From NCBI GenBank assembly GCA_005222975.1, contig NJBI01000061.1:1-18174 (forward strand): a stretch of 18,174 nt of DNA, given 5' to 3'. Shown here piece after piece: positions 585 to 18,174 of this stretch. Numbering within the stretch: position 1 is the stretch's first letter; the number at the start of each line of letters is the position of its first letter. The DNA is from Promethearchaeota archaeon Loki_b31. Its GTDB lineage: Archaea > Asgardarchaeota > Lokiarchaeia > Sigyniarchaeales > SOKP01. Below the pieces are notes generated by a model that had not been told where the DNA came from, ran no database searches, and saw nothing but the letters and a program-made list of their open reading frames with translations. Position numbers and translations under genes: made by a program.

Positions 585-1547
585 GTGCCTATAAAAGCAA
601 TCGTTACCCAATCAGTTGATGATTTAGTAAGGTGTATAAATCTTTCGAGCTTGTTGGAGTTATCTGGGTGGCCTAAACCGGGAAATGTCCATAGAACTAA
701 AAATTTTCCAAATACAAGATTTGAACACTTTTTAGCGGGTATTGCAGCAATCCAACCAAATTTTAAGGGTTTTTGTGAAACAGTATATAACTCTGTAAAA
801 AGTGAAAAAGAAAGTTTTAGTTCTATTGAATTAGGTCTTTTTTTTAAGGAATCAGCTAATCAAATGATGAAGTGGCAGTCTGGAGGAAATGTCTTACTGG
901 GACACATTCTTATCTTAGCTCCATTAGCAGCAGCAGCTACAATTTGTTTAAAATTAAATATGAAAAAGATCGAAAATTTCGAATCTATAATTAAAAAGGT
1001 TATCGAAGATGCTACAGTTAAAGATACGGTGAATTTATACGACGCTATAAAAATATGTAATCCAGGTGGACTAGGTAACATTGAAAAGTATGATATTAAC
1101 GATGAAAAGTCATATAAGGATATTATTAATGATAATATAAATCTTAAAAAAATATTTGAACTATCAAAAGAATATGATTTAATAAGCAACGAGTATGCTA
1201 GTGGCTTCAATACTATATTAAAAGAAGGCTTACCATATTTTTTTGATACTTATGATAAATGTAAAGACATAAATAGCACAATTGTCGATACATATTTAAA
1301 ACTACTGAGCACGCATTTAGATACCTTAATTATTCGGAAAGCGGGTAAGGAAGCTGCGTTGAATGTCTCAAAAATAGCTTCAGATATTATAAAATATGGA
1401 GGTATCACTACTAAAAAAGGATTAAATTTAACAGTTAAATTTGATAAAGAATTGCATAAACAAAACGGAAAACTAAACCCAGGTACCATAGCTGATCTAG
1501 TTGCGGGAACAATATTTTGTGTTTTAATATTTGGTTTAAAATTTTAA
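585..1547 (+). CDS. citG: CitG-family triphosphoribosyl-dephospho-CoA synthase-like protein (archaeal type)
   Basis: Motifs LLELSGWPKPGNVHR, GGNVLLG, DTLIIRKAG and LNPGTIADL are typical of the CitG family. GTG start. Confidence 0.85.
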   Translation: MPIKAIVTQSVDDLVRCINLSSLLELSGWPKPGNVHRTKNFPNTRFEHFLAGIAAIQPNFKGFCETVYNSVKSEKESFSSIELGLFFKESANQMMKWQSGGNVLLGHILILAPLAAAATICLKLNMKKIENFESIIKKVIEDATVKDTVNLYDAIKICNPGGLGNIEKYDINDEKSYKDIINDNINLKKIFELSKEYDLISNEYASGFNTILKEGLPYFFDTYDKCKDINSTIVDTYLKLLSTHLDTLIIRKAGKEAALNVSKIASDIIKYGGITTKKGLNLTVKFDKELHKQNGKLNPGTIADLVAGTIFCVLIFGLKF

Positions 1548-1592
1548 GAAAAAAAATTAATAATATCTTATTAGAAAAGTAAGTTAATAGGA

Positions 1593-1955
1593 GTGATTAT
1601 ATTGGAATTTTGCGATGAATGTGGAGGGAGAATGATGCTCCCCTCAACGGTAAACGGTAAAAAAGTATTTAAGTGTAAGTGTGGTGCGACAAAACCTATT
1701 ACTGAGGAAAAATCTAATTCATATAGAATAAAAACTAAAATAGAACATTCTATTAGAGAGGAAATATCAAATCTAACCGAATTTATGAAGTGGAAAGAAG
1801 AAAATTTAAGAAGCTCTATTAAAGATTTTAAATGTCGAAGATGTGGTTACGATAAAGCTCATTTAGAAACTAGGCAAACAAGAAGTGCGGATGAGGGGAT
1901 GACGCATTTTATAACTTGCCTAAAATGTGGTAAAATGATAAAGATTGGAAGCTGA
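1593..1955 (+). CDS. tfs: Transcription factor S (TFS/RpoM, TFIIS-type cleavage factor)
   Basis: N-terminal Zn ribbon FCDECG...CKCG and C-terminal CRRCG...QTRSADEGMTHFITCLKCG with an intact acidic hairpin (SADE). Confidence 0.92.
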   Translation: MIILEFCDECGGRMMLPSTVNGKKVFKCKCGATKPITEEKSNSYRIKTKIEHSIREEISNLTEFMKWKEENLRSSIKDFKCRRCGYDKAHLETRQTRSADEGMTHFITCLKCGKMIKIGS

Positions 1956-6013: not shown

Positions 6014-7602
6014 TCACTGATTTTGATTAAAAAGTCTACCATATCCTATTAATCGGTAACGTCTATTAATAATTCTAGAAATCGCAAATATTGAATTCTC
6101 AGGAGGGCAAATAGGTGGATTTAAATTGAGAATATAAGAGTTTTTTAAAATCTTTGTAACAGTTCCTGCTGTTTTTTCAGTACCAACAACTAATAAGAGC
6201 TTTTCGTTATGTTTAAGTTGTTGAACCCTTATTTGCATTTCAGAACCAATTACTTTTTCTAAAAGGTTGACTTTTAACTCTACTTGTGAAATAATTTCGG
6301 GTAATGTGTTAGTTTTGCCAACCAAATGCCCTATCAGAGAGTCTCCCCTTGTCAAGGCGGGATCTAATTTTGTCCCTAATCCAATTAAACCACCGAGATT
6401 AGCTTCTTCTAAAAGATTATCCCCTTGGCTAATACTTACTATTTCAGTTCTAATTGGTATAAAATCGTTCTTAACTCGAAGACCCGGCCTAATTTCGATT
6501 TCTTCACCAACTTTAATTTTACCTTTTAATACGGATCCTCCTATAACTCCGCCTCTTAATTTATTGATTTCTGTGCCTGGGCGATTTATGTCAAAAGATC
6601 TAGCAACTAAGAATTGAAATTCTTCTCCTTCACGAACTTTAGGAGAAGGTATTATTTCTTCGAACGCTCGAACTATCAGATTGATATTAACGCCAAAAAC
6701 TGCGGAAACAGGTATAATTGGAGCGTTTTCGGCAATGGAATCTTTTACAAACGCTTTGATTTGCTTATAATTTTCGTACGCTTGCTCTTTTGACACCGCA
6801 TCAATTTTATTTTGGATGATAATAATGTTCTCGATTCCCGCAATATTCAATGCGGCTAAATGTTCTCTCGTTTGTGGTTGGGGACAAACTTCATCAGCGG
6901 CAATTAGTAAACACGCGCCATTCATTAAAAAAGCTCCACTTAGCATAGTAGCCATTAAGATTTCATGGCCAGGAGCATCGACGAAGGAAATATTTCTTCT
7001 AAACTCTAAATTTTTTTTACAGTTGGGGCAAACAAATCTTGGTTGACCTTTTTTTCTAGCCGCTTCTGCCATATGATACGTAAGATATTCATCGCATTCA
7101 GGGCAGTATAGAATAGTCGCATTTGAGTATCCTAATTTTATCGAAATCCCTCTCTCTATTTCCTCAGAATGTCTATCCGTCCAATCGCCCGTTAAGGTCT
7201 TAACTAGTGTAGTCTTTATAGGAAATGCCGAAATGGCTAGATCATTCCATGGTCTACATGGCCCACTAGTCCGATATTACACTCTGCTTGTTTTTTTATT
7301 AGTTCTTTAAGGTTTGTGCTTTTTTTTGGCTTTACCTTTTTTGTTGGTTCTGCTTTTTTGGCGGGTTTCTCTTTTACATCCAATTTTAAAGTTTCTACTT
7401 CTGACGATTTCTCCTTCAGTAATAAGCCTGCACTTTCAATGAATTTCAACGCTGTTGCTTTACCAATACCTTTGATTTTTAGTTTCACAATATCCTCTGG
7501 TTTAGACGAAGCTAATTTTTCAACAGAATTAATGCCTGCTTGTTTAATTTTTTTAGCTGTTTCTGATCCGATGCCTTTTACATCCTCTAATTGATTAACC
7601 AT
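6014..7602 (-). CDS. eif2g: Translation initiation factor aIF2/eIF2 gamma with N-terminal HhH extension; two exons join(7245..7602, 6014..7215), 519 aa after removal of a 29-nt intron
   Basis: Exon 1 ends NIGLVGHVDHG. Exon 2 continues KTTLVKTLTGDWTDRHSEEIERGISIKLGY, Zn ribbon CPEC...CPNC, DAPGHE, QPQTREH, NKID, PVSA, RSFDINRPG, GGVIGGS, RYRLIGYG. Exon lengths are 358+1202=1560 nt = 520 codons. The ORF track splits the gene into 7237..7602 and 6014..7072. Confidence 0.93.
7216..7244 (-). other. Candidate 29-nt bulge-helix-bulge mRNA intron in aIF2-gamma
   Basis: mRNA-sense sequence UGAUCUAGCCAUUUCGGCAUUUCCUAUAA. Central 4-bp helix AUGG(7250-7247)/CUAU(7221-7218), with 3-nt bulges AAU(7246-7244) and AAA(7217-7215). 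Cleavage after the 2nd nt of each bulge gives CAU GGA A|AG ACU ACA = HGKTT. Confidence 0.82.
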
Positions 7603-11922: not shown

Positions 11923-12214
11923 GCAACCATATAAGGAAAGCATTTTACAATAATAGCCGAACTTATAAGATGGTTGTTCATAGAAAAAAAAAAACCATAT
12001 AAATTGTGCGCAACTCGCGCAACTCCTGGAAGTTAAACTGTTTTGCGTTGTGGATAGTACTGTAGTAGAAAGACTATGGGAAACTACAAACTGTGGCTTC
12101 GGCTACGGTCATGGTATTACAGGATAAAACCTGGTCACATCCGAAAAACAATCTGCCGAACAGATGGTTCGGGAACCCAGAAAGCGGTAATTTATATGGT
12201 TATACGGATTTTTT
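11923..12214 (+). ncRNA. Unclassified structured RNA candidate (5' hairpin plus multibranched domain of about 210 nt)
   Basis: Locally GC-enriched non-coding island. 13-bp perfect closing helix 11993-12005/12189-12201, a C(UUCG)G-capped stem at 12091-12108, and several nested stems whose G-U pairs work only on the + strand. T6 run at 12209-12214. Confidence 0.62.
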
Positions 12215-12845: not shown

Positions 12846-14954
12846 TTAATTTTTAATATTGTTTGTTAATTTAATGACCGTACCTTCGATTTCTTTGGGA
12901 TTGCCTTTATCATCCCTTATTAAATGAGAATTTAATTGGATATTTATTATCTTTCCATCAGGAGTTTTAATTTGAGAGGTAAAATTTCTAACAAAACCCT
13001 TTTCTAATAAATCTTTATAATATTTTTTTTGATCACTTGCGTTCACAAAAAATTGGGAAGATTTAGAGCCAACCAGCGATATGGATTCACTCAAACCTAA
13101 TATCTTAATAAGCGCCGCATTGTGCATTAATAACTTTTCCTTAAACTCTCCTTTATAAAATCCTACATCTAAGTCGTTTAACATTCTTTTATATTTTTCT
13201 TCTGATTCCTTTAATTCTCTAGTTTTTTCCTCAACTTTTTGGACTAGGGTTTCGTTTAATAATTTCAAACTAATTTCAGATTGCATTAATGAATCCTCTG
13301 TTAATTTGCGTGTCGTAATGTCGCGTATTATCACAATCGCCAGTTCTGTTTCTCCTTCGAGATTTAATCCAGCTGCACTTGAAGTAGTCCAACAGACTAT
13401 TTTGTTCCCAATTATGTTGACATATTCTTTTTCTTTCTCGTGTATTTTTCCATCTAAAAAGGTTTTTAGGATCATACACTCTTTACACGGTTTACCGCGG
13501 TGCATTAAAACATTGTAACATTTTTTACTAGTTAATTGCATTCCAAATGTTTGTTTTGCTACATTATTAACCCAAATAATATTTAAATGATTATCTACAA
13601 GATAAATCGTATCTGTTAAAGAAGACATGATCCCTGCCAGTAATTGATGGCTTCCTTTCAATGTTTCCTCGGACCATTTGCGTTCTAAAGCGTTACTAAT
13701 AATTTCAGATGTAGTTTGGAGTAAATAAAAATCTTCTTCTTCCCATTTACTTACCCGTTCAATATTATCAAATCCTATGAACCCATATAATTCATTTTTA
13801 ATTTTAATTGGAAAAACAAGCAAGGAATTAATCTTCAATTTTTCTAATTCTCTTCTTGTTGCGCTTGCTTCTTCTGGTAATTCTGATACATCTTTAATGT
13901 AAATAAAATTTTTTTCTCTACTTTGCTTTGAACTCCAAGGAAGCTTTTTATAATCTATAGTTGTTAAGTTAATCATTTGGGGTTCTATTCCCTCAGCACA
14001 TCATTCTTGGATATAAGATTCAAGAGAATCTTTTTCGTTAAACAGTAAAATATATGCCCGTGTAGCACCAATTAGAGTTCCCATATCAAGAAGTGATTCG
14101 CTAATTGCCTTATCAATATCAATATTACCAATAAGTCTTGATGAAATGGTAGAGATGAATTTTTCGTTTTCAAGTTTTCGCTTAATTTTTTGTTCGAAAT
14201 TTTTACGTTCTGTGATATCGATTATAAACGCTTGGATTAATTGCTCTTCACCGACCTTTATCAACGAGATTTGACTACTTATCCATGCTTTACTTCCGTC
14301 TTTTTTGTATATTTCAAATTCAATAGGTTTAATAGGTTTTCCCTCCAATAAACGAGATAATAGTGATTTAAATAATGGAATAAGGTTTGAAGGGTACGCT
14401 GCTAACTTTAAATAATTCTTGTTTAGTAAATCGTCTTTGGTATAACCAGATTGCATTTCTGTTGCAAGATTAACGTCGAATATTGCCCCGTTTAATTTTA
14501 ATAGAACAATTGATTCAGGTGAATGTTCGAATAATTGTCTATATTTTTTTTCAGAACCTATAAGCTTTTTTTCCGCTAGTTTCCATTGCGTTATATCATT
14601 TATATGAACAATTATCAAATCGGGTGGTAGAAAATGCATCTTAAGGGATATATAAACTTCTTCACCAGTTGTTTTCATAATATATTCAGATATTTTAGAA
14701 ATACTTTTTTTCTCTTGAAAGCATTGATTTAACGCTTCAATAATGTCTAGTCTATCTTCATGAATTTCAGATGCTTTCTTATGTAAAAGATCCTTAATCT
14801 TTCCCTTAGTTACTATTTCAGCTGCTTTGTTATAATCAATTAGTATAAAATTATTATTTTTCTCTTGCCAAACATAAGATGGTATTGGGATACCATCAAA
14901 AAAAATTCTAATATTCTTTTCTAGAAGAAATGTTTTACTTTCTAATTCCTCCAT
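12846..14954 (-). pseudogene. PAS-PAS-GAF-PAS-PAS sensor protein, a single reading frame interrupted by one in-frame TGA (14001-14003)
   Basis: ORFs 14001..14954 and 12846..13976 are in the same frame and read YIQE*CAEGIEPQMINL across the junction. PAS/PAC signatures DITQWK, DITERK and DITTRK; GAF signature SLLVFPI...LYGFIGFDN. No kinase domain. Confidence 0.75.
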
Positions 14955-16684: not shown

Positions 16685-18174
16685 CAGTATCAAAGCAAGT
16701 AGATCCTTGAATCCTATTGAACTGAATCCCTTTTTATTAAGATATATTTCCAATCCCTAAATCTTATAAATTATATTGCTAATTTTGTTTCTAATGGATC
16801 TTTATCTTAAGATTTATAAGAGAAGAGTGGTTATATTTATTTATGCGAATAAATAATATATCTCCACTCTCAGATTTGAAAGCTGAGCTAAAACCACTTT
16901 TCTCTAATGAATATATGTTAGCATTTTTTAAAAAGTTTTGTGATATAATCAAATCTCGAATGTGGGGGTGTAAAACAGGTAAAAACGCAAGATATAATGC
17001 TGAGGACTTTCTAAGAATCTTTTTCTTTTCCGAAATAACAGGAAGGTCTATAGAAAGTGCCAGCGAAAAGCTGAACAGGTACTTTTTGAGTAAAAAAAGG
17101 GGAAAGCGAAAAAAGTATGCTGATGGACGAAATAAACGAGATATTCCACACCAAACAGGCGTGAATAAGTTTTTACGCGGTATTGGACTTAAAAAAGCTA
17201 AAAGAATTTTACGAGAATGTTTAGATAATCAATTGAAGGAAGCTTTAAAATTAGGACTTATTTCAAAAAGCGTCAATGTTTTAATTGACTTTACAGAACA
17301 TGATTATTATGGAAAACGGAACGATAAAATGATCAAGAGAACAAATCAGGGGAAGGGAACGAAAAATATGCGTCAATACTTAGGCTTTTCGATTTTGTCA
17401 AGAGGAATTCACCTTTATGCAGGATTAGAGCATTTCGCAAAAAAACAAGCTAAAGTCCCCATTATTCTTAAATTTCTCCAGCATTTAATCAATTTAGAGT
17501 TTGAGATAAAATTTGTGTTAATGGATAGAGAATTTTATAATGCTGAGCTAATAAAGAATATTAAAGCAATTAAAGCTGATGTTTTAATTCCTAATAGATC
17601 TTCCCCAAAGATTAAACAAATCTTCGAAGATTATATAAGGCGAACAGGCAATAGAGTAAGGAGATATACTTTTTCAACAGGTCACAGGAAGCAACTACGA
17701 TTTTCCCAGATACTCTATTTAATTTTACAAGCAAAAAAGGGTCATTCTCTTTTAGGTATTAAACAAGAATTTCAGAAGGGGAAATTAGCCTTAAACGATG
17801 CTATGAAGTTAATTTATGCCATAATGACTACCCAAAAACCTAAGAGTAAACCAAGTTCCTGGCCTTCCCGCACATCTAATTTTTATAAAAAAAGATGGTT
17901 TATAGAGACGGGGTTTTCCGACTTAAATCGGATGGGGCGGCGATGGAAATCAAGATACGACAATACCAGATATTTAGACTTGTTTGTTCGAATGCTTCTT
18001 TACAATTCGTGGAAAATAAACCGCACATTCCTTGAAAAACATCAAAAAAAAGGGCATAAAAGCCAAAAGTGGACACTACAGGATAACCAGGATGCTTTAG
18101 TTGAAACTTTTCTCGAAGCGTAGAAAAAAATAGAGTTATTAAAACGTAAAGGTGAGAATAATGTCGGCATAGAA
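16685..18174 (+). mobile_element. ISH3/IS4-like insertion sequence, right end outside the window
   Basis: Contains a DDE transposase. The candidate left end CAGTATCAAAGCAAG at 16685 fits the 5'-CAG start typical of ISH3-family inverted repeats. No matching right IR is visible before 18174, so the boundary is inferred. Confidence 0.6.
16843..18123 (+). CDS. DDE transposase (IS4 superfamily, probably ISH3 family)
   Basis: LIDFTEHDYYG (D1), LMDREFY (D2), YKKRWFIETGF (YREK-type motif with catalytic E). 426 aa, intact frame. Confidence 0.9.
   Translation: MRINNISPLSDLKAELKPLFSNEYMLAFFKKFCDIIKSRMWGCKTGKNARYNAEDFLRIFFFSEITGRSIESASEKLNRYFLSKKRGKRKKYADGRNKRDIPHQTGVNKFLRGIGLKKAKRILRECLDNQLKEALKLGLISKSVNVLIDFTEHDYYGKRNDKMIKRTNQGKGTKNMRQYLGFSILSRGIHLYAGLEHFAKKQAKVPIILKFLQHLINLEFEIKFVLMDREFYNAELIKNIKAIKADVLIPNRSSPKIKQIFEDYIRRTGNRVRRYTFSTGHRKQLRFSQILYLILQAKKGHSLLGIKQEFQKGKLALNDAMKLIYAIMTTQKPKSKPSSWPSRTSNFYKKRWFIETGFSDLNRMGRRWKSRYDNTRYLDLFVRMLLYNSWKINRTFLEKHQKKGHKSQKWTLQDNQDALVETFLEA

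What the first reader, a model, noticed from the sequence alone, without database searches (positions are those of the whole stretch)
11993..12214. Unannotated multibranched structured RNA of about 210 nt between the C25 peptidase and a membrane protein gene
Seen: closing helix AACCATATAAATT/AATTTATATGGTT (11993-12005/12189-12201). Nested stems: TGTTTT/AAAACA (12039-44/12145-50), TGTGG/TCACA (12049-53/12135-39), TAGTAC/GTATTA (12055-60/12114-19), TGTAGT/ACTACA (12061-66/12083-88, enclosing AGAAA and GGAAA), CTGTGGC-TTCG-GCTACGG (12091-12108), CAGG/CCTG (12120-23/12130-33), ATCTG/CAGAT (12151-55/12161-65) and GGTT/AACC (12166-69/12174-77). There is also a direct repeat GCGCAACTC x2 (12008-12025). 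The G-U pairs and the C(UUCG)G tetraloop favour a + strand RNA, with a T-run just downstream. It does not match tRNA, 5S, SRP or canonical RNase P signatures by eye. Inference: a novel ncRNA, ribozyme or cis-regulatory leader; alternatively a MITE with 13-bp terminal inverted repeats.
Basis: partly seen in the sequence, partly recalled or inferred. Interest (0 to 1): 0.75.

Follow-up and report, generated by a model that had tools for sequence, protein, structure and literature searches.

The report
Back-to-front 5S rRNA gene with intron
This is the only 5S ribosomal RNA gene of an Asgard-type archaeon, written back half first and interrupted by a 30-base intron; flanking tRNA-splicing-type signals predict, but do not yet prove, that the transcript is cut and rejoined into a 121-base ring, and the layout explains why annotation finds no 5S gene in this whole family.

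Summary
The structured element at 11993-12201 (+) is real, but it is not a new RNA family. It is a circularly permuted 5S rRNA gene.

- **Order in the gene:** the 3' two-thirds of 5S comes first (12032-12097). Helix I is capped by UUCG (12098-12101). The 5' third follows (12102-12145 plus 12176-12182).
- **Intron:** a 30-nt bulge-helix-bulge (BHB) intron lies in loop C (12146-12175).
- **Ends:** they carry a duplicated CNGGAA that forms a BHB-like motif. Cutting after the second bulge base and ligating restores a canonical 5S of 117 nt, or a 121-nt circle with the cap.

Support:
- The 5S-type pairing holds in 92% of cells, with 14 compensatory pairs.
- Un-permuted, spliced sequences from 22 genomes align full length to sister-family 5S.
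- The genome has no other 5S candidate.
- 118 of 131 other family genomes carry the same layout.
- No family genome has an archaeal canonical 5S.
- Two EndA paralogues and RtcB are present.
- Relatives use other breakpoints and introns with the same AA^N signature, and all restore the same sequence.

No RNA data could be obtained here, so cutting, joining and ring persistence are inferred. This scan had already found the same layout in other Asgard genomes. No paper describing it was found.

The parts
11954..11974 (+). Conserved upstream box TAGCCGAACTTATAAGATGGT containing a TATA-like CTTATAAG (11962-11969). Inferred archaeal promoter.
   Evidence: The box is visible in most of the relatives examined. 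A TATA-like octamer was found by pattern in 12 of 22, lying 26-30 nt upstream of the element start. The promoter function is inferred, not shown.
11993..12005 (+). 5' arm of the 13-bp outer (precursor) helix, AACCAUAUAAAUU.
   Evidence: It pairs with 12189-12201. 95% of cells are paired and 4 pairs show compensatory change.
12006..12025 (+). Variable leader that includes the 9-nt tandem duplication GCGCAACUC x2 (12008-12025). Predicted to be discarded.
   Evidence: Leaders differ completely even between close relatives at 93-96% identity.
12026..12032 (+). Leader strand of the terminal BHB-like motif: central helix CUGG (12026-12029) and bulge AAG (12030-12032). The predicted cut is after 12031.
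   Evidence: CUGG pairs with CCAG at 12177-12180. This helix is 100% paired in 30 distinct leader/trailer pairs against 0-62% when slid, and it covaries CCGG/CCGG <-> CUGG/CCAG. It is also present in the MFE fold of the precursor.
12032..12097 (+). The 3' two-thirds of 5S. Helix III 3' strand GU (12032-33); helix II 3' strand (12038-46); helix V (12049-53/12084-88); loop E AUAGUA/GAAA; helix IV (12060-66/12073-79); helix I 3' strand (12091-97).
   Evidence: Rfam 5S alignment. nhmmer matches 5S profile positions 49-116. Covariation is seen in helices II, IV and V.
12098..12101 (+). UUCG tetraloop joining what are normally the free 3' and 5' ends of 5S (cap of helix I).
   Evidence: The loop is always 4 nt but varies in sequence (UUCG, UACG, UUAG, UUUG, CUCG, UAUG). 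The 7-bp helix below it is 100% paired, with 2 compensatory pairs.
12102..12145 (+). The 5' third of 5S, first exon. Helix I 5' strand (12102-08); loop A UCAUG; helix II 5' strand (12114-22); helix III 5' strand AC+CUGG (12129-34); loop C up to ...CAUCCGAA.
   Evidence: nhmmer matches 5S profile positions 3-42 / 1-44 downstream of the 3' part. Helix II forms between the two halves with 4 compensatory pairs.
12146..12175 (+). 30-nt BHB-type intron in loop C. Central helix UCCG (12140-43)/CGGG (12170-73); bulges AA^A (cut after 12145) and AA^C (cut after 12175); intron helix AAC/GUU plus hairpin AUCUG-CCGAA-CAGAU.
   Evidence: The insert is present in the window's clade and in G023/G006 with a different interior but the same boundaries. 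It is absent in 13 other relatives. Removing it restores the canonical loop C and a 117-nt length. The BHB conformer is within 1.6 kcal/mol of the local MFE.
12176..12183 (+). Last 7 nt of the mature 5S (C, CCAG, AA; 12176-12182). This is also the trailer strand of the terminal BHB: central helix CCAG (12177-80) and bulge AAA (12181-83). The predicted cut is after 12182.
   Evidence: Joining ...CCCAGAA (end at 12182) to GUUAAAC (start at 12032) gives the canonical CCGAAC-CCAGAA-GUUAAAC of 5S loop C / helix III.
12184..12201 (+). Trailer: GCGG (12184-87), which in relatives pairs with the 4 leader bases next to the central helix, followed by the 3' arm of the outer helix (12189-12201).
   Evidence: The outer 4-bp helix is 84% paired at the exact 3-nt-bulge register against 22-40% when slid. 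Variants are CCGC/GCGG, AGCG/CGCU, GCGU/ACGC and AGUG/UGCU. In the window itself only 2 of 4 positions pair (ACUC/GCGG).
12209..12214 (+). T6 run. Inferred archaeal terminator.
   Evidence: Sequence. T runs follow the element in most but not all relatives.

Best explanation
Window 11993-12201 (+) is the organism's 5S rRNA gene in circularly permuted order.

**Proposed pathway**
1. One transcript, roughly 11992-12214, folds so that the 13-bp outer helix brings leader and trailer together.
2. The duplicated C(U/C)GGAA words at the two ends form a bulge-helix-bulge-like motif: a 4-bp helix CUGG/CCAG with an AA^N bulge on each strand.
3. The two-subunit splicing endonuclease cuts after 12031 and after 12182.
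4. It also excises a 30-nt BHB intron from loop C (12146-12175).
5. RtcB joins the ends.
6. The product is a 121-nt covalently closed RNA: a canonical 117-nt 5S with helix I capped by UUCG.
7. Most likely this RNA enters the ribosome as a ring.

**Shown here**
- 5S identity, permuted order and conservation.
- Covariation of the 5S helices and of the splice-motif helices.
- Uniqueness in the genome.
- Presence of the enzyme genes.

**Inferred**
- Transcription limits.
- Cleavage and ligation.
- Persistence of the ring.

My odds: permuted 5S gene about 0.95; cut and rejoined about 0.85; ring is the final working form about 0.55. The confidence given is for the whole chain.
For: **5S identity**
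- The weak Rfam 5S match (15.8 bits) at 11993-12099 is the only 5S-like match in the 3.52-Mb genome, which is 92% complete. nhmmer with --max finds no other locus.
- Against a profile of 9 canonical sister-family 5S genes, the first half of the element matches positions 47-116 and the second half matches 3-51.
- After un-permuting and removing the predicted introns, all 22 genus sequences are 116-117 nt. They match positions 4-114 at 31-52 bits.
- The window's un-permuted sequence folds by MFE into the 5S three-way junction.

**Structure**
- The 5S-type structure is 92.4% paired against 39-45% for slid controls.
- It has 14 pairs with compensatory change. Four of these lie in helix II, which forms between the two halves.

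**Distribution**
- A covariance model of the permuted core hits full length (84-124 bits) in 118 of 131 other genomes of the family, in 12 of 13 genera, mostly once per genome. It also hits one genome of a second family.
- Only 2 of 135 family genomes have a canonical Rfam 5S. Both of those lie next to bacterial 23S rRNA on contaminant contigs.
- The sister family has canonical 5S at 53-69 bits.

**Splice motif**
- Central helix is 100% paired and outer helix 84% paired at the exact register, against 0-62% and 22-40% when slid. Both have compensatory variants.
- Cut-and-join gives exactly the canonical loop C / helix III sequence.
- G016 and G024 use a different breakpoint (AGCG-CCGG-AA^C... 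and ...CCGG-UC^U-CGCU). With that junction their profile scores rise from 26.5/21.0 to 47.1/42.0 bits.
- A third family breaks in loop B with the same AA^A signature (read by eye).
- G022 and G013 carry a textbook BHB intron in helix IV: CUGC-AA^A, a 5-bp intron helix, then GCAG-AA^U.

**Enzymes and DNA control**
- Two EndA-domain genes of about 200 aa and RtcB are present.
- Asgard archaea are reported to have the broad-specificity (alpha-beta)2 EndA (PMC5829648).
- In JGI metagenome contigs the capped helix I junction occurs in 30 contigs and the rejoined junction in none.

**Precedents**
- Permuted, circularised SRP RNA (PMC4731332).
- E. coli ribosomes work with 5S whose native ends are linked by 4 nt (PMC7283268).
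Against: - Transcription, cleavage, ligation and circularity are therefore untested here.
- The motif is relaxed, not textbook. On the leader strand the bulge is AA, with a G that can pair, followed by only GUU/AAC.
- In the window itself the outer 4-bp helix pairs at only 2 of 4 positions (ACUC/GCGG).
- The loop C intron lacks an exon helix directly next to the central helix, so it is the HBh' type.
- The central-helix covariation is partly tied to helix III itself, because the trailer strand is also the helix III 3' strand.
- Thermodynamic folding does not single out the processing conformer: -43.9 against an MFE of -63.0 kcal/mol for the partial structure I wrote.
- Current reviews state that archaeal 5S is not processed through circles (PMC12918454).
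- A later check of a related finding of this scan priced the 'ring is the ribosome's 5S' claim at only 35/100.
Confidence: 0.55

Rival explanations
1. Circular intermediate, linear product. The transcript is cut and ligated as above, but the ring is then re-opened, for example in or near the helix I cap. This would give a conventional linear 5S, as happens with permuted tRNA genes and with circular pre-16S/23S intermediates.
For: - Re-linearisation of circular pre-rRNAs is the textbook archaeal pathway (PMC12918454 background).
- Permuted tRNAs mature through a circle to a linear RNA (cited in PMC4267664).
- All evidence for cutting and joining applies equally here.
Against: - There is no second splice motif or conserved sequence at the cap.
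- The loop is always 4 nt but varies in sequence, on a perfectly paired 7-bp helix, which looks like a plain structural cap.
- A 4-nt link between the 5S ends is tolerated in E. coli ribosomes (PMC7283268).
- Circular SRP RNA and circular 23S rRNA persist in other archaea (PMC4731332, PMC12918454).
Confidence: 0.15
2. Linear permuted 5S, no ligation. The transcript of about 210 nt, or a trimmed form, works as it is. Its ends lie in helix III / loop C and are held together by the outer helix, like the permuted mitochondrial 5S of brown algae. The 30-nt insert would be an expansion segment.
For: - The outer helix is long, conserved and covarying.
- Promoter-like and T-run signals bracket exactly this unit.
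- Natural RNAs permuted in the final product exist (PMC4267664).
- The window's own BHB is imperfect.
Against: - It does not explain the exact CNGGAA duplication.
- It does not explain the 3-nt-bulge register of the outer 4-bp helix: 84% paired against 22-40% when slid.
- It does not explain why two other breakpoints carry the same motif and give the same joined sequence.
- In G016 and G024 the sequence after the trailer motif is unconserved, so it looks like spacer rather than functional RNA.
- The helix IV and loop C inserts have precise BHB boundaries and are present or absent among close relatives.
Confidence: 0.13
3. One reading: a new structured ncRNA, ribozyme or cis-regulatory leader unrelated to known families. 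Alternatively, a MITE with 13-bp terminal inverted repeats.
For: - No Rfam family reaches its gathering score.
- A strong closing helix is present and the element folds better than shuffles.
Against: - The sequence and structure are those of 5S once re-ordered.
- The element is single copy in its genome and mostly one copy per genome across the family.
- The inverted repeat covaries as an RNA helix, and I saw no target-site duplication at the ends.
Confidence: 0.02

Closest known systems
Permuted, circularised SRP RNA gene of Thermoproteus tenax (Plagens et al. 2015, eLife, PMC4731332)
   Same: - An essential, universally conserved ncRNA gene in permuted order.
- The canonical gene appears to be 'missing' from the genome.
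- The termini lie next to a functional loop.
- The tRNA splicing endonuclease processes the site and the ends are ligated into a functional circle.
   Different: - A different RNA: 5S rRNA, a ribosome component.
- Here the layout is fixed across a whole family (118 of 131 genomes).
- Several alternative breakpoints occur.
- Extra BHB introns lie inside the gene.
- In Thermoproteus the circle is shown by RNA-seq and enzyme assays. Here it is only inferred.
Circularly permuted tRNA genes (Cyanidioschyzon merolae; Soma et al. 2007, as cited in PMC4267664)
   Same: - The 3' half is encoded upstream of the 5' half.
- The native ends are joined by a short linker.
- A BHB-type motif at the precursor ends gives a circular RNA.
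   Different: - tRNA circles are re-opened by RNase P and tRNase Z to give linear tRNA.
- No comparable opening signal is seen at the 5S helix I cap.
Circular pre-16S/23S rRNA, circular 23S in archaeal ribosomes, and permuted 23S of Pyrococcus/Thermococcus (PMC12918454, PMC7758197, bioRxiv 10.64898/2026.03.23.713588)
   Same: BHB motifs in a processing stem, with EndA cleavage and ligation giving circular rRNA that can persist in ribosomes.
   Different: - Those genes are collinear and the permutation arises at the RNA level.
- 5S is stated not to take part (PMC12918454).
- Here the gene itself is permuted and circularisation is needed to restore continuity.
'Permuted' mitochondrial 5S rRNA of brown algae (Valach et al. 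2014, PMC4267664)
   Same: A 5S rRNA with helix I closed as a hairpin, missed by standard models.
   Different: - There the ends lie at the three-way junction, the RNA stays permuted, and no splicing motif or ligation is involved.
- Here the break is in loop C / helix III, with duplicated junction words and BHB geometry.
Engineered circularly permuted 5S in E. coli (Huang et al. 2020, PMC7283268)
   Same: The native 5S ends are linked by a 4-nt connector and the RNA is opened in loop C or D. The resulting ribosomes are functional.
   Different: - Artificial, bacterial, and tethered into 23S rRNA.
- It is a precedent for tolerance of the cap, not a relative.

Membership tests
5S rRNA (Rfam RF00001) | Three-way junction: helix I; helices II-III with loops B and C; helices V-IV with loops E and D | tested here: met
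   Met after re-ordering. The MFE fold of the un-permuted, spliced window sequence is the 5S junction. All five helices are supported on 21 sequences: 92.4% paired and 14 compensatory pairs.
5S rRNA (Rfam RF00001) | Conserved sequence blocks: loop A CAU(A/G)G; loop C ...CCGAAC; GGAAGUUAA(A/G)C; loop E AGUA/GAA | tested here: met
   cmscan alignment. Full-length nhmmer match to the sister-family 5S profile at positions 4-114, 33.1 bits for the window and 31-52 bits across the genus.
5S rRNA (Rfam RF00001) | The genomic sequence reaches the Rfam gathering score (38 bits) as a collinear gene | tested here: not met
   15.8 bits, E about 2. The failure follows from the swapped order and the intron. 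I could not score a re-ordered sequence with Infernal.
5S rRNA (Rfam RF00001) | It is the genome's 5S, with no other candidate | tested here: met
   It is the only match in the own genome at E<=10 and by nhmmer --max. In 135 family genomes the only canonical 5S hits lie next to bacterial 23S rRNA. The genome is 92% complete, so absence elsewhere is not absolute.
5S rRNA (Rfam RF00001) | Expressed and present in the large ribosomal subunit | not testable with these tools
No structure or RNA data were available.
BHB-processed permuted ncRNA genes (Thermoproteus SRP RNA type) | The 3' part is encoded upstream of the 5' part, with the native ends joined | tested here: met
   The order of profile matches is swapped. 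Helix I is capped by 4 nt.
BHB-processed permuted ncRNA genes (Thermoproteus SRP RNA type) | The precursor ends form a bulge-helix-bulge: a 4-bp helix with two 3-nt bulges on opposite strands, flanked by helices | tested here: inconclusive
   The central helix is always paired. The trailer bulge is 3 nt, with an adjacent helix in relatives that is 84% paired. The leader-side bulge is AA(G) followed by only GUU/AAC. In the window the outer helix pairs at 2 of 4 positions. This is a relaxed motif.
BHB-processed permuted ncRNA genes (Thermoproteus SRP RNA type) | Cutting in the bulges and ligating restores the canonical RNA | tested here: met
   Tested in silico. All 22 sequences become 116-117 nt, for two breakpoint types in the genus. 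A third breakpoint in another family was read by eye.
BHB-processed permuted ncRNA genes (Thermoproteus SRP RNA type) | Splicing endonuclease and RNA ligase are encoded | tested here: met
   Two PF01974 genes (97.7 and 70.5 bits) and RtcB (562 bits) are present.
BHB-processed permuted ncRNA genes (Thermoproteus SRP RNA type) | A circular junction is observed in RNA | not testable with these tools
Earlier notes of this scan claim such reads for relatives, but I did not check them.
Archaeal BHB intron (for 12146-12175) | A 4-bp central helix with 3-nt bulges on opposite strands and an intron helix | tested here: met
   Central helix UCCG/CGGG with one G-U pair; bulges AAA and AAC; intron helix AAC/GUU plus AUCUG/CAGAT. 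The exon helix is not adjacent, so this is the HBh' type.
Archaeal BHB intron (for 12146-12175) | Precise presence/absence among homologues, and removal restores the conserved sequence | tested here: met
   Present in 7 of the 22 genus genes with two unrelated interiors. Removal gives canonical loop C.
MITE | Many dispersed copies with target-site duplications | tested here: not met
   One copy in the own genome and mostly one per genome in the family. I saw no duplication at the ends.

The most novel reading that the evidence does not exclude
Ribosomes of a whole family of Asgard archaea contain a covalently closed, 121-nt circular 5S rRNA. It would be made by the tRNA-splicing machinery from a permuted, intron-bearing gene. 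The break point and the introns have moved repeatedly because helix III of 5S (CCGG/CCGG plus the bulged AA) is itself half of a splice motif.
Probability: 0.5. Interest if true: 0.9.

Novelty: new variant of a known kind. Interest (0 to 1): 0.8.

Why it matters
- 5S rRNA is regarded as a collinear, linear, independently transcribed molecule in all cellular ribosomes. Archaeal 5S is said not to go through the circularisation pathway of 16S and 23S.
- A family-wide permuted 5S gene would extend the moonlighting of the tRNA splicing enzymes to a third rRNA, because it can only become a contiguous 5S by cut-and-join.
- It would probably give the first natural circular 5S.
- It would explain why 5S genes look missing in these genomes: 0 of 135 family genomes have an archaeal Rfam hit.
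- It gives annotators a model (108 positions, hitting 118 of 131 other family genomes) to recover them.
- Together with BHB introns inside the 5S gene and a candidate one in the aIF2-gamma mRNA, it points to unusually wide use of protein-dependent splicing in close relatives of eukaryotes.

Tried and rejected
- **5S with a long insertion.** My first idea was a 5S with an insertion between helix V and helix I, as I recall for Halococcus morrhuae. I dropped it when the 'insertion' proved to be the 5' third of 5S.
They show no conservation beyond shuffles.
- **MITE.** The element is single copy.
- **Genome contigs pattern scan.** The pattern for the capped helix I was too loose. I therefore have no organism names.
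- **The look-up of encoding contigs.** The neighbouring peptidase is not on record.
- **Metagenome scan for the rejoined junction.** It gave 0 hits. I use this only as a DNA-level control beside the 30 hits for the permuted junction.
- **Apparent canonical 5S in G015 and G073.** Both lie next to bacterial 23S rRNA and are contaminants.
- **Infernal score for a re-ordered sequence.** I could not obtain one. nhmmer and ViennaRNA in the script box stood in.

Full report
**What is in the sequence**

The 13-bp inverted repeat 11993-12005/12189-12201, the hairpin CTGTGGC-TTCG-GCTACGG (12091-12108), the hairpin ATCTG/CAGAT and the 9-nt tandem repeat are all present. No Rfam family reaches its gathering score anywhere in the window and no tRNA is found. 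Both strands fold better than shuffles (z = -3.4 and -3.6), so energy does not give the strand.

With permissive thresholds the only notable match is 5S rRNA: 15.8 bits over 11993-12099. It shows recognisable GGAAGUUAAAC, AGUAC...GGGAA (loop E) and helix IV/V blocks.

**It is the 5S gene, back half first**

- That weak match is the only 5S-like match in the whole 3.52-Mb assembly, which is 92% complete. The element is single copy.
- Homologues occur once each in 20, and as two partial matches in the other 2, of the 22 (out of 24) sampled genomes of the genus that have one. None of those genomes has a canonical archaeal 5S. The sister family has ordinary 5S genes at 53-69 bits, some in tandem arrays.
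- Read against those canonical genes, the second half of the element begins like a normal 5S: helix I 5' strand GCUACGG, loop A UCAUGG, helix II, helix III, loop C. The first half ends like one...helix V, then helix I 3' strand CUGUGGC. The two native ends are joined by UUCG.
- A profile of nine sister-family 5S genes matches the first half with positions 47-116 and the second half with positions 3-51, which is swapped order. After re-ordering there is one full-length match.
- The re-ordered window sequence folds by MFE into the 5S three-way junction.

**Comparative support for the fold**

On 21 distinct sequences the 5S-type pairing holds in 92.4% of cells, against 39-45% when partners are slid. 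Fourteen pairs have changes on both sides. Four of these are in helix II, which forms between the two halves. Others are in helices I, IV and V and in the outer helix.

**The ends look like a splice site**

In almost every relative the leader reads [4 nt][C(C/U)GG]AA^G-UUAAAC. The trailer reads ...GAAC[CC(G/A)G]AA^N[4 nt].

- The two bracketed 4-mers pair in 100% of 30 distinct leader/trailer pairs, and they covary (CCGG/CCGG with CUGG/CCAG).
- The outer 4-mers pair in 84% of positions at exactly the register that leaves a 3-nt bulge, against 22-40% when slid. Variants include CCGC/GCGG, AGCG/CGCU, GCGU/ACGC and AGUG/UGCU.
- This is the strand polarity of an archaeal bulge-helix-bulge motif: helix, 4-bp helix, 3-nt bulge, helix on each strand. 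That description of the motif rests on established knowledge of EndA substrates, as summarised in bioRxiv 10.64898/2026.10.13.758758 and PMC5829648.
- Cutting after the second bulge base on both strands and ligating gives ...CCGAAC-CCGGAA-GUUAAAC..., exactly the canonical 5S. Because both bulges begin with AA, the product sequence does not depend on which bulge phosphate is cut, as long as the cuts are symmetric.
- The motif is relaxed on the leader side: an AA bulge, then GUU/AAC.
- In the window itself the outer 4-bp helix is poor (ACUC/GCGG, 2 of 4), next to a 9-nt duplication in the leader. The same variant recurs in three distinct loci, so it is not an assembly error.

**Independent lines for splicing**

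1. *A second breakpoint.* Two genomes of the genus (G016, G024) break the gene elsewhere. The leader is ...AGCG-CCGG-AA^C-CAUCCGAACCCGGAAGUUAAAC and the trailer is ...UAC-CCGG-UC^U-CGCU followed by unconserved sequence. Joining there again gives the canonical loop C. It raises the profile score to 47.1 and 42.0 bits, from 26.5 and 21.0 with the other junction.
2. *A third breakpoint.* A genome of another family (G026) is permuted with a break in loop B and the same CCGA/UCGG plus AA^A geometry (read by eye; 78.8 bits to my model).
3. *The loop C insert.* The window's clade, and G023/G006, carry a 30-31-nt insert in loop C bounded by UCCG-AA^N ... CGGG-AA^C. The interiors are unrelated. In the window this is 12146-12175.
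4. *The helix IV intron.* G022 and G013 carry a textbook BHB intron in helix IV: CUGC-AA^A, the 5-bp helix AGUGC/GCACU, then GCAG-AA^U.

Removing these inserts makes all 22 sequences 116-117 nt. They then match the sister-family profile over positions 4-114 at 31-52 bits.

The window product would be 12032-12145 plus 12176-12182, which is 121 nt including the cap.

**Enzymes and taxon**

- The genome encodes two EndA-domain proteins of about 200 aa, and RtcB.
- Asgard archaea are reported to have the two-subunit EndA with the loop that confers broad substrate specificity. Only such enzymes cut relaxed motifs (PMC5829648).
- A full-length actin (442 bits) and a VPS28-like match, which the prokaryotic controls lack, fit an Asgard archaeon. 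I could not obtain organism names.

**Distribution**

- A covariance model of the permuted core (108 positions) hits full length in 118 of 131 other genomes of the family, in 12 of 13 genera, mostly once per genome. Many hits are about 30 nt longer, which fits the helix IV intron.
- It hits 1 of 14 in the sister family, weakly and over that genome's canonical gene. It hits 0 of 4 in a fourth family.
- Rfam's 5S model finds only two over-threshold hits in 135 family genomes. Both lie next to bacterial 23S rRNA.
- In JGI metagenome contigs the capped helix I junction occurs in 30 contigs and the rejoined junction in none. The DNA therefore exists only in permuted form there.

**What is not shown**

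Transcription limits are inferred from two features: a conserved box with a TATA-like word 26-30 nt upstream, and a T run downstream. Cleavage, ligation and especially persistence of the ring are inferences.

- The rival that the ring is re-opened has precedent but no visible signal at the cap.
- The rival that the RNA stays linear does not explain the junction duplication, the bulge register or the multiple breakpoints.

**Literature and earlier notes**

- Searches for permuted or circular 5S in archaea or Asgard found no description.
- Minor circular 5S species were seen in Sulfolobus and Halobacterium but not validated (PMC3326292).
- The closest precedent is the permuted, circularised SRP RNA of Thermoproteus (PMC4731332).
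- This scan has already reported the same layout in other Asgard genomes, some with claimed RNA support for a 121-nt ring.
- One of those notes gave me the lead that the 30-nt insert is an intron. I then tested that at the sequence level. I did not check their RNA claims.

Noticed in passing
window 7216-7244 (minus strand), within the aIF2-gamma gene 6014-7602: The aIF2-gamma reading frame breaks inside the P-loop (GHVDHG | KTT). About 29 extra bases shift the frame. The boundaries read AUGG-AA^U ... CUAU-AA^A, the same 4-bp plus AA^N signature as the 5S splice sites. Removing 7216-7244 gives CAU GGA AAG ACU ACA (HGKTT). This is a candidate BHB intron in an mRNA. The protein also has an N-terminal helix-hairpin-helix-like extension.
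   Followed up: partly
L019 (G022) 1473-1682 and L020 (G013) 1473-1682; many family hits of 137-139 nt: A textbook 30-nt BHB intron in helix IV of the permuted 5S gene: CUGC-AA^A, AGUGC/GCACU, GCAG-AA^U. From the hit lengths it seems common in other genera of the family.
   Followed up: partly
L023 (G016) 1472-1659 and L024 (G024) 1453-1641: The same genus uses a different permutation breakpoint, on the 5' side of loop C. The leader keeps what looks like a relic of an upstream 5S copy (GCUUCG-CAUAG-CGCC...). This suggests origin from a tandem duplication, like the tandem 5S arrays of the sister family (G032 x3, G039 x2).
   Followed up: partly
L037 (G026, another family) about 1400-1600, minus strand: A permuted 5S gene with the break in loop B and a CCGA/UCGG plus AA^A motif. 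Rfam sees only positions 20-59.
   Followed up: partly
L036 (G015:C263) and L239 (G073:C68): Bacterial rRNA contigs binned into archaeal MAGs. Each carries the 3' end of a 23S rRNA followed by a 5S. The G073 contig has a group I intron in its 23S.
   Followed up: yes
G109:C109:5278-5384; G085:C211:1-93; G020:C36 and C51 contig ends: A weak second permuted-5S-like copy lies about 780 nt downstream of the main one in G109. Partial copies sit at contig ends in G085 and G020, so assemblies seem to break at this locus.
   Followed up: no
L009, L007, L012 (G002 group), flanks of the outer helix: Complementarity extends beyond the outer helix (GUGAUAG upstream, UUAUCAC downstream) into what I take to be the promoter-to-start interval. 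Either the transcript starts further upstream in these species or the match is fortuitous.
   Followed up: no
window 16843-18123 and 12846-14954: A DDE transposase gene (PF01609), and two adjacent PAS/GAF-domain genes on the minus strand downstream of the 5S unit.
   Followed up: no
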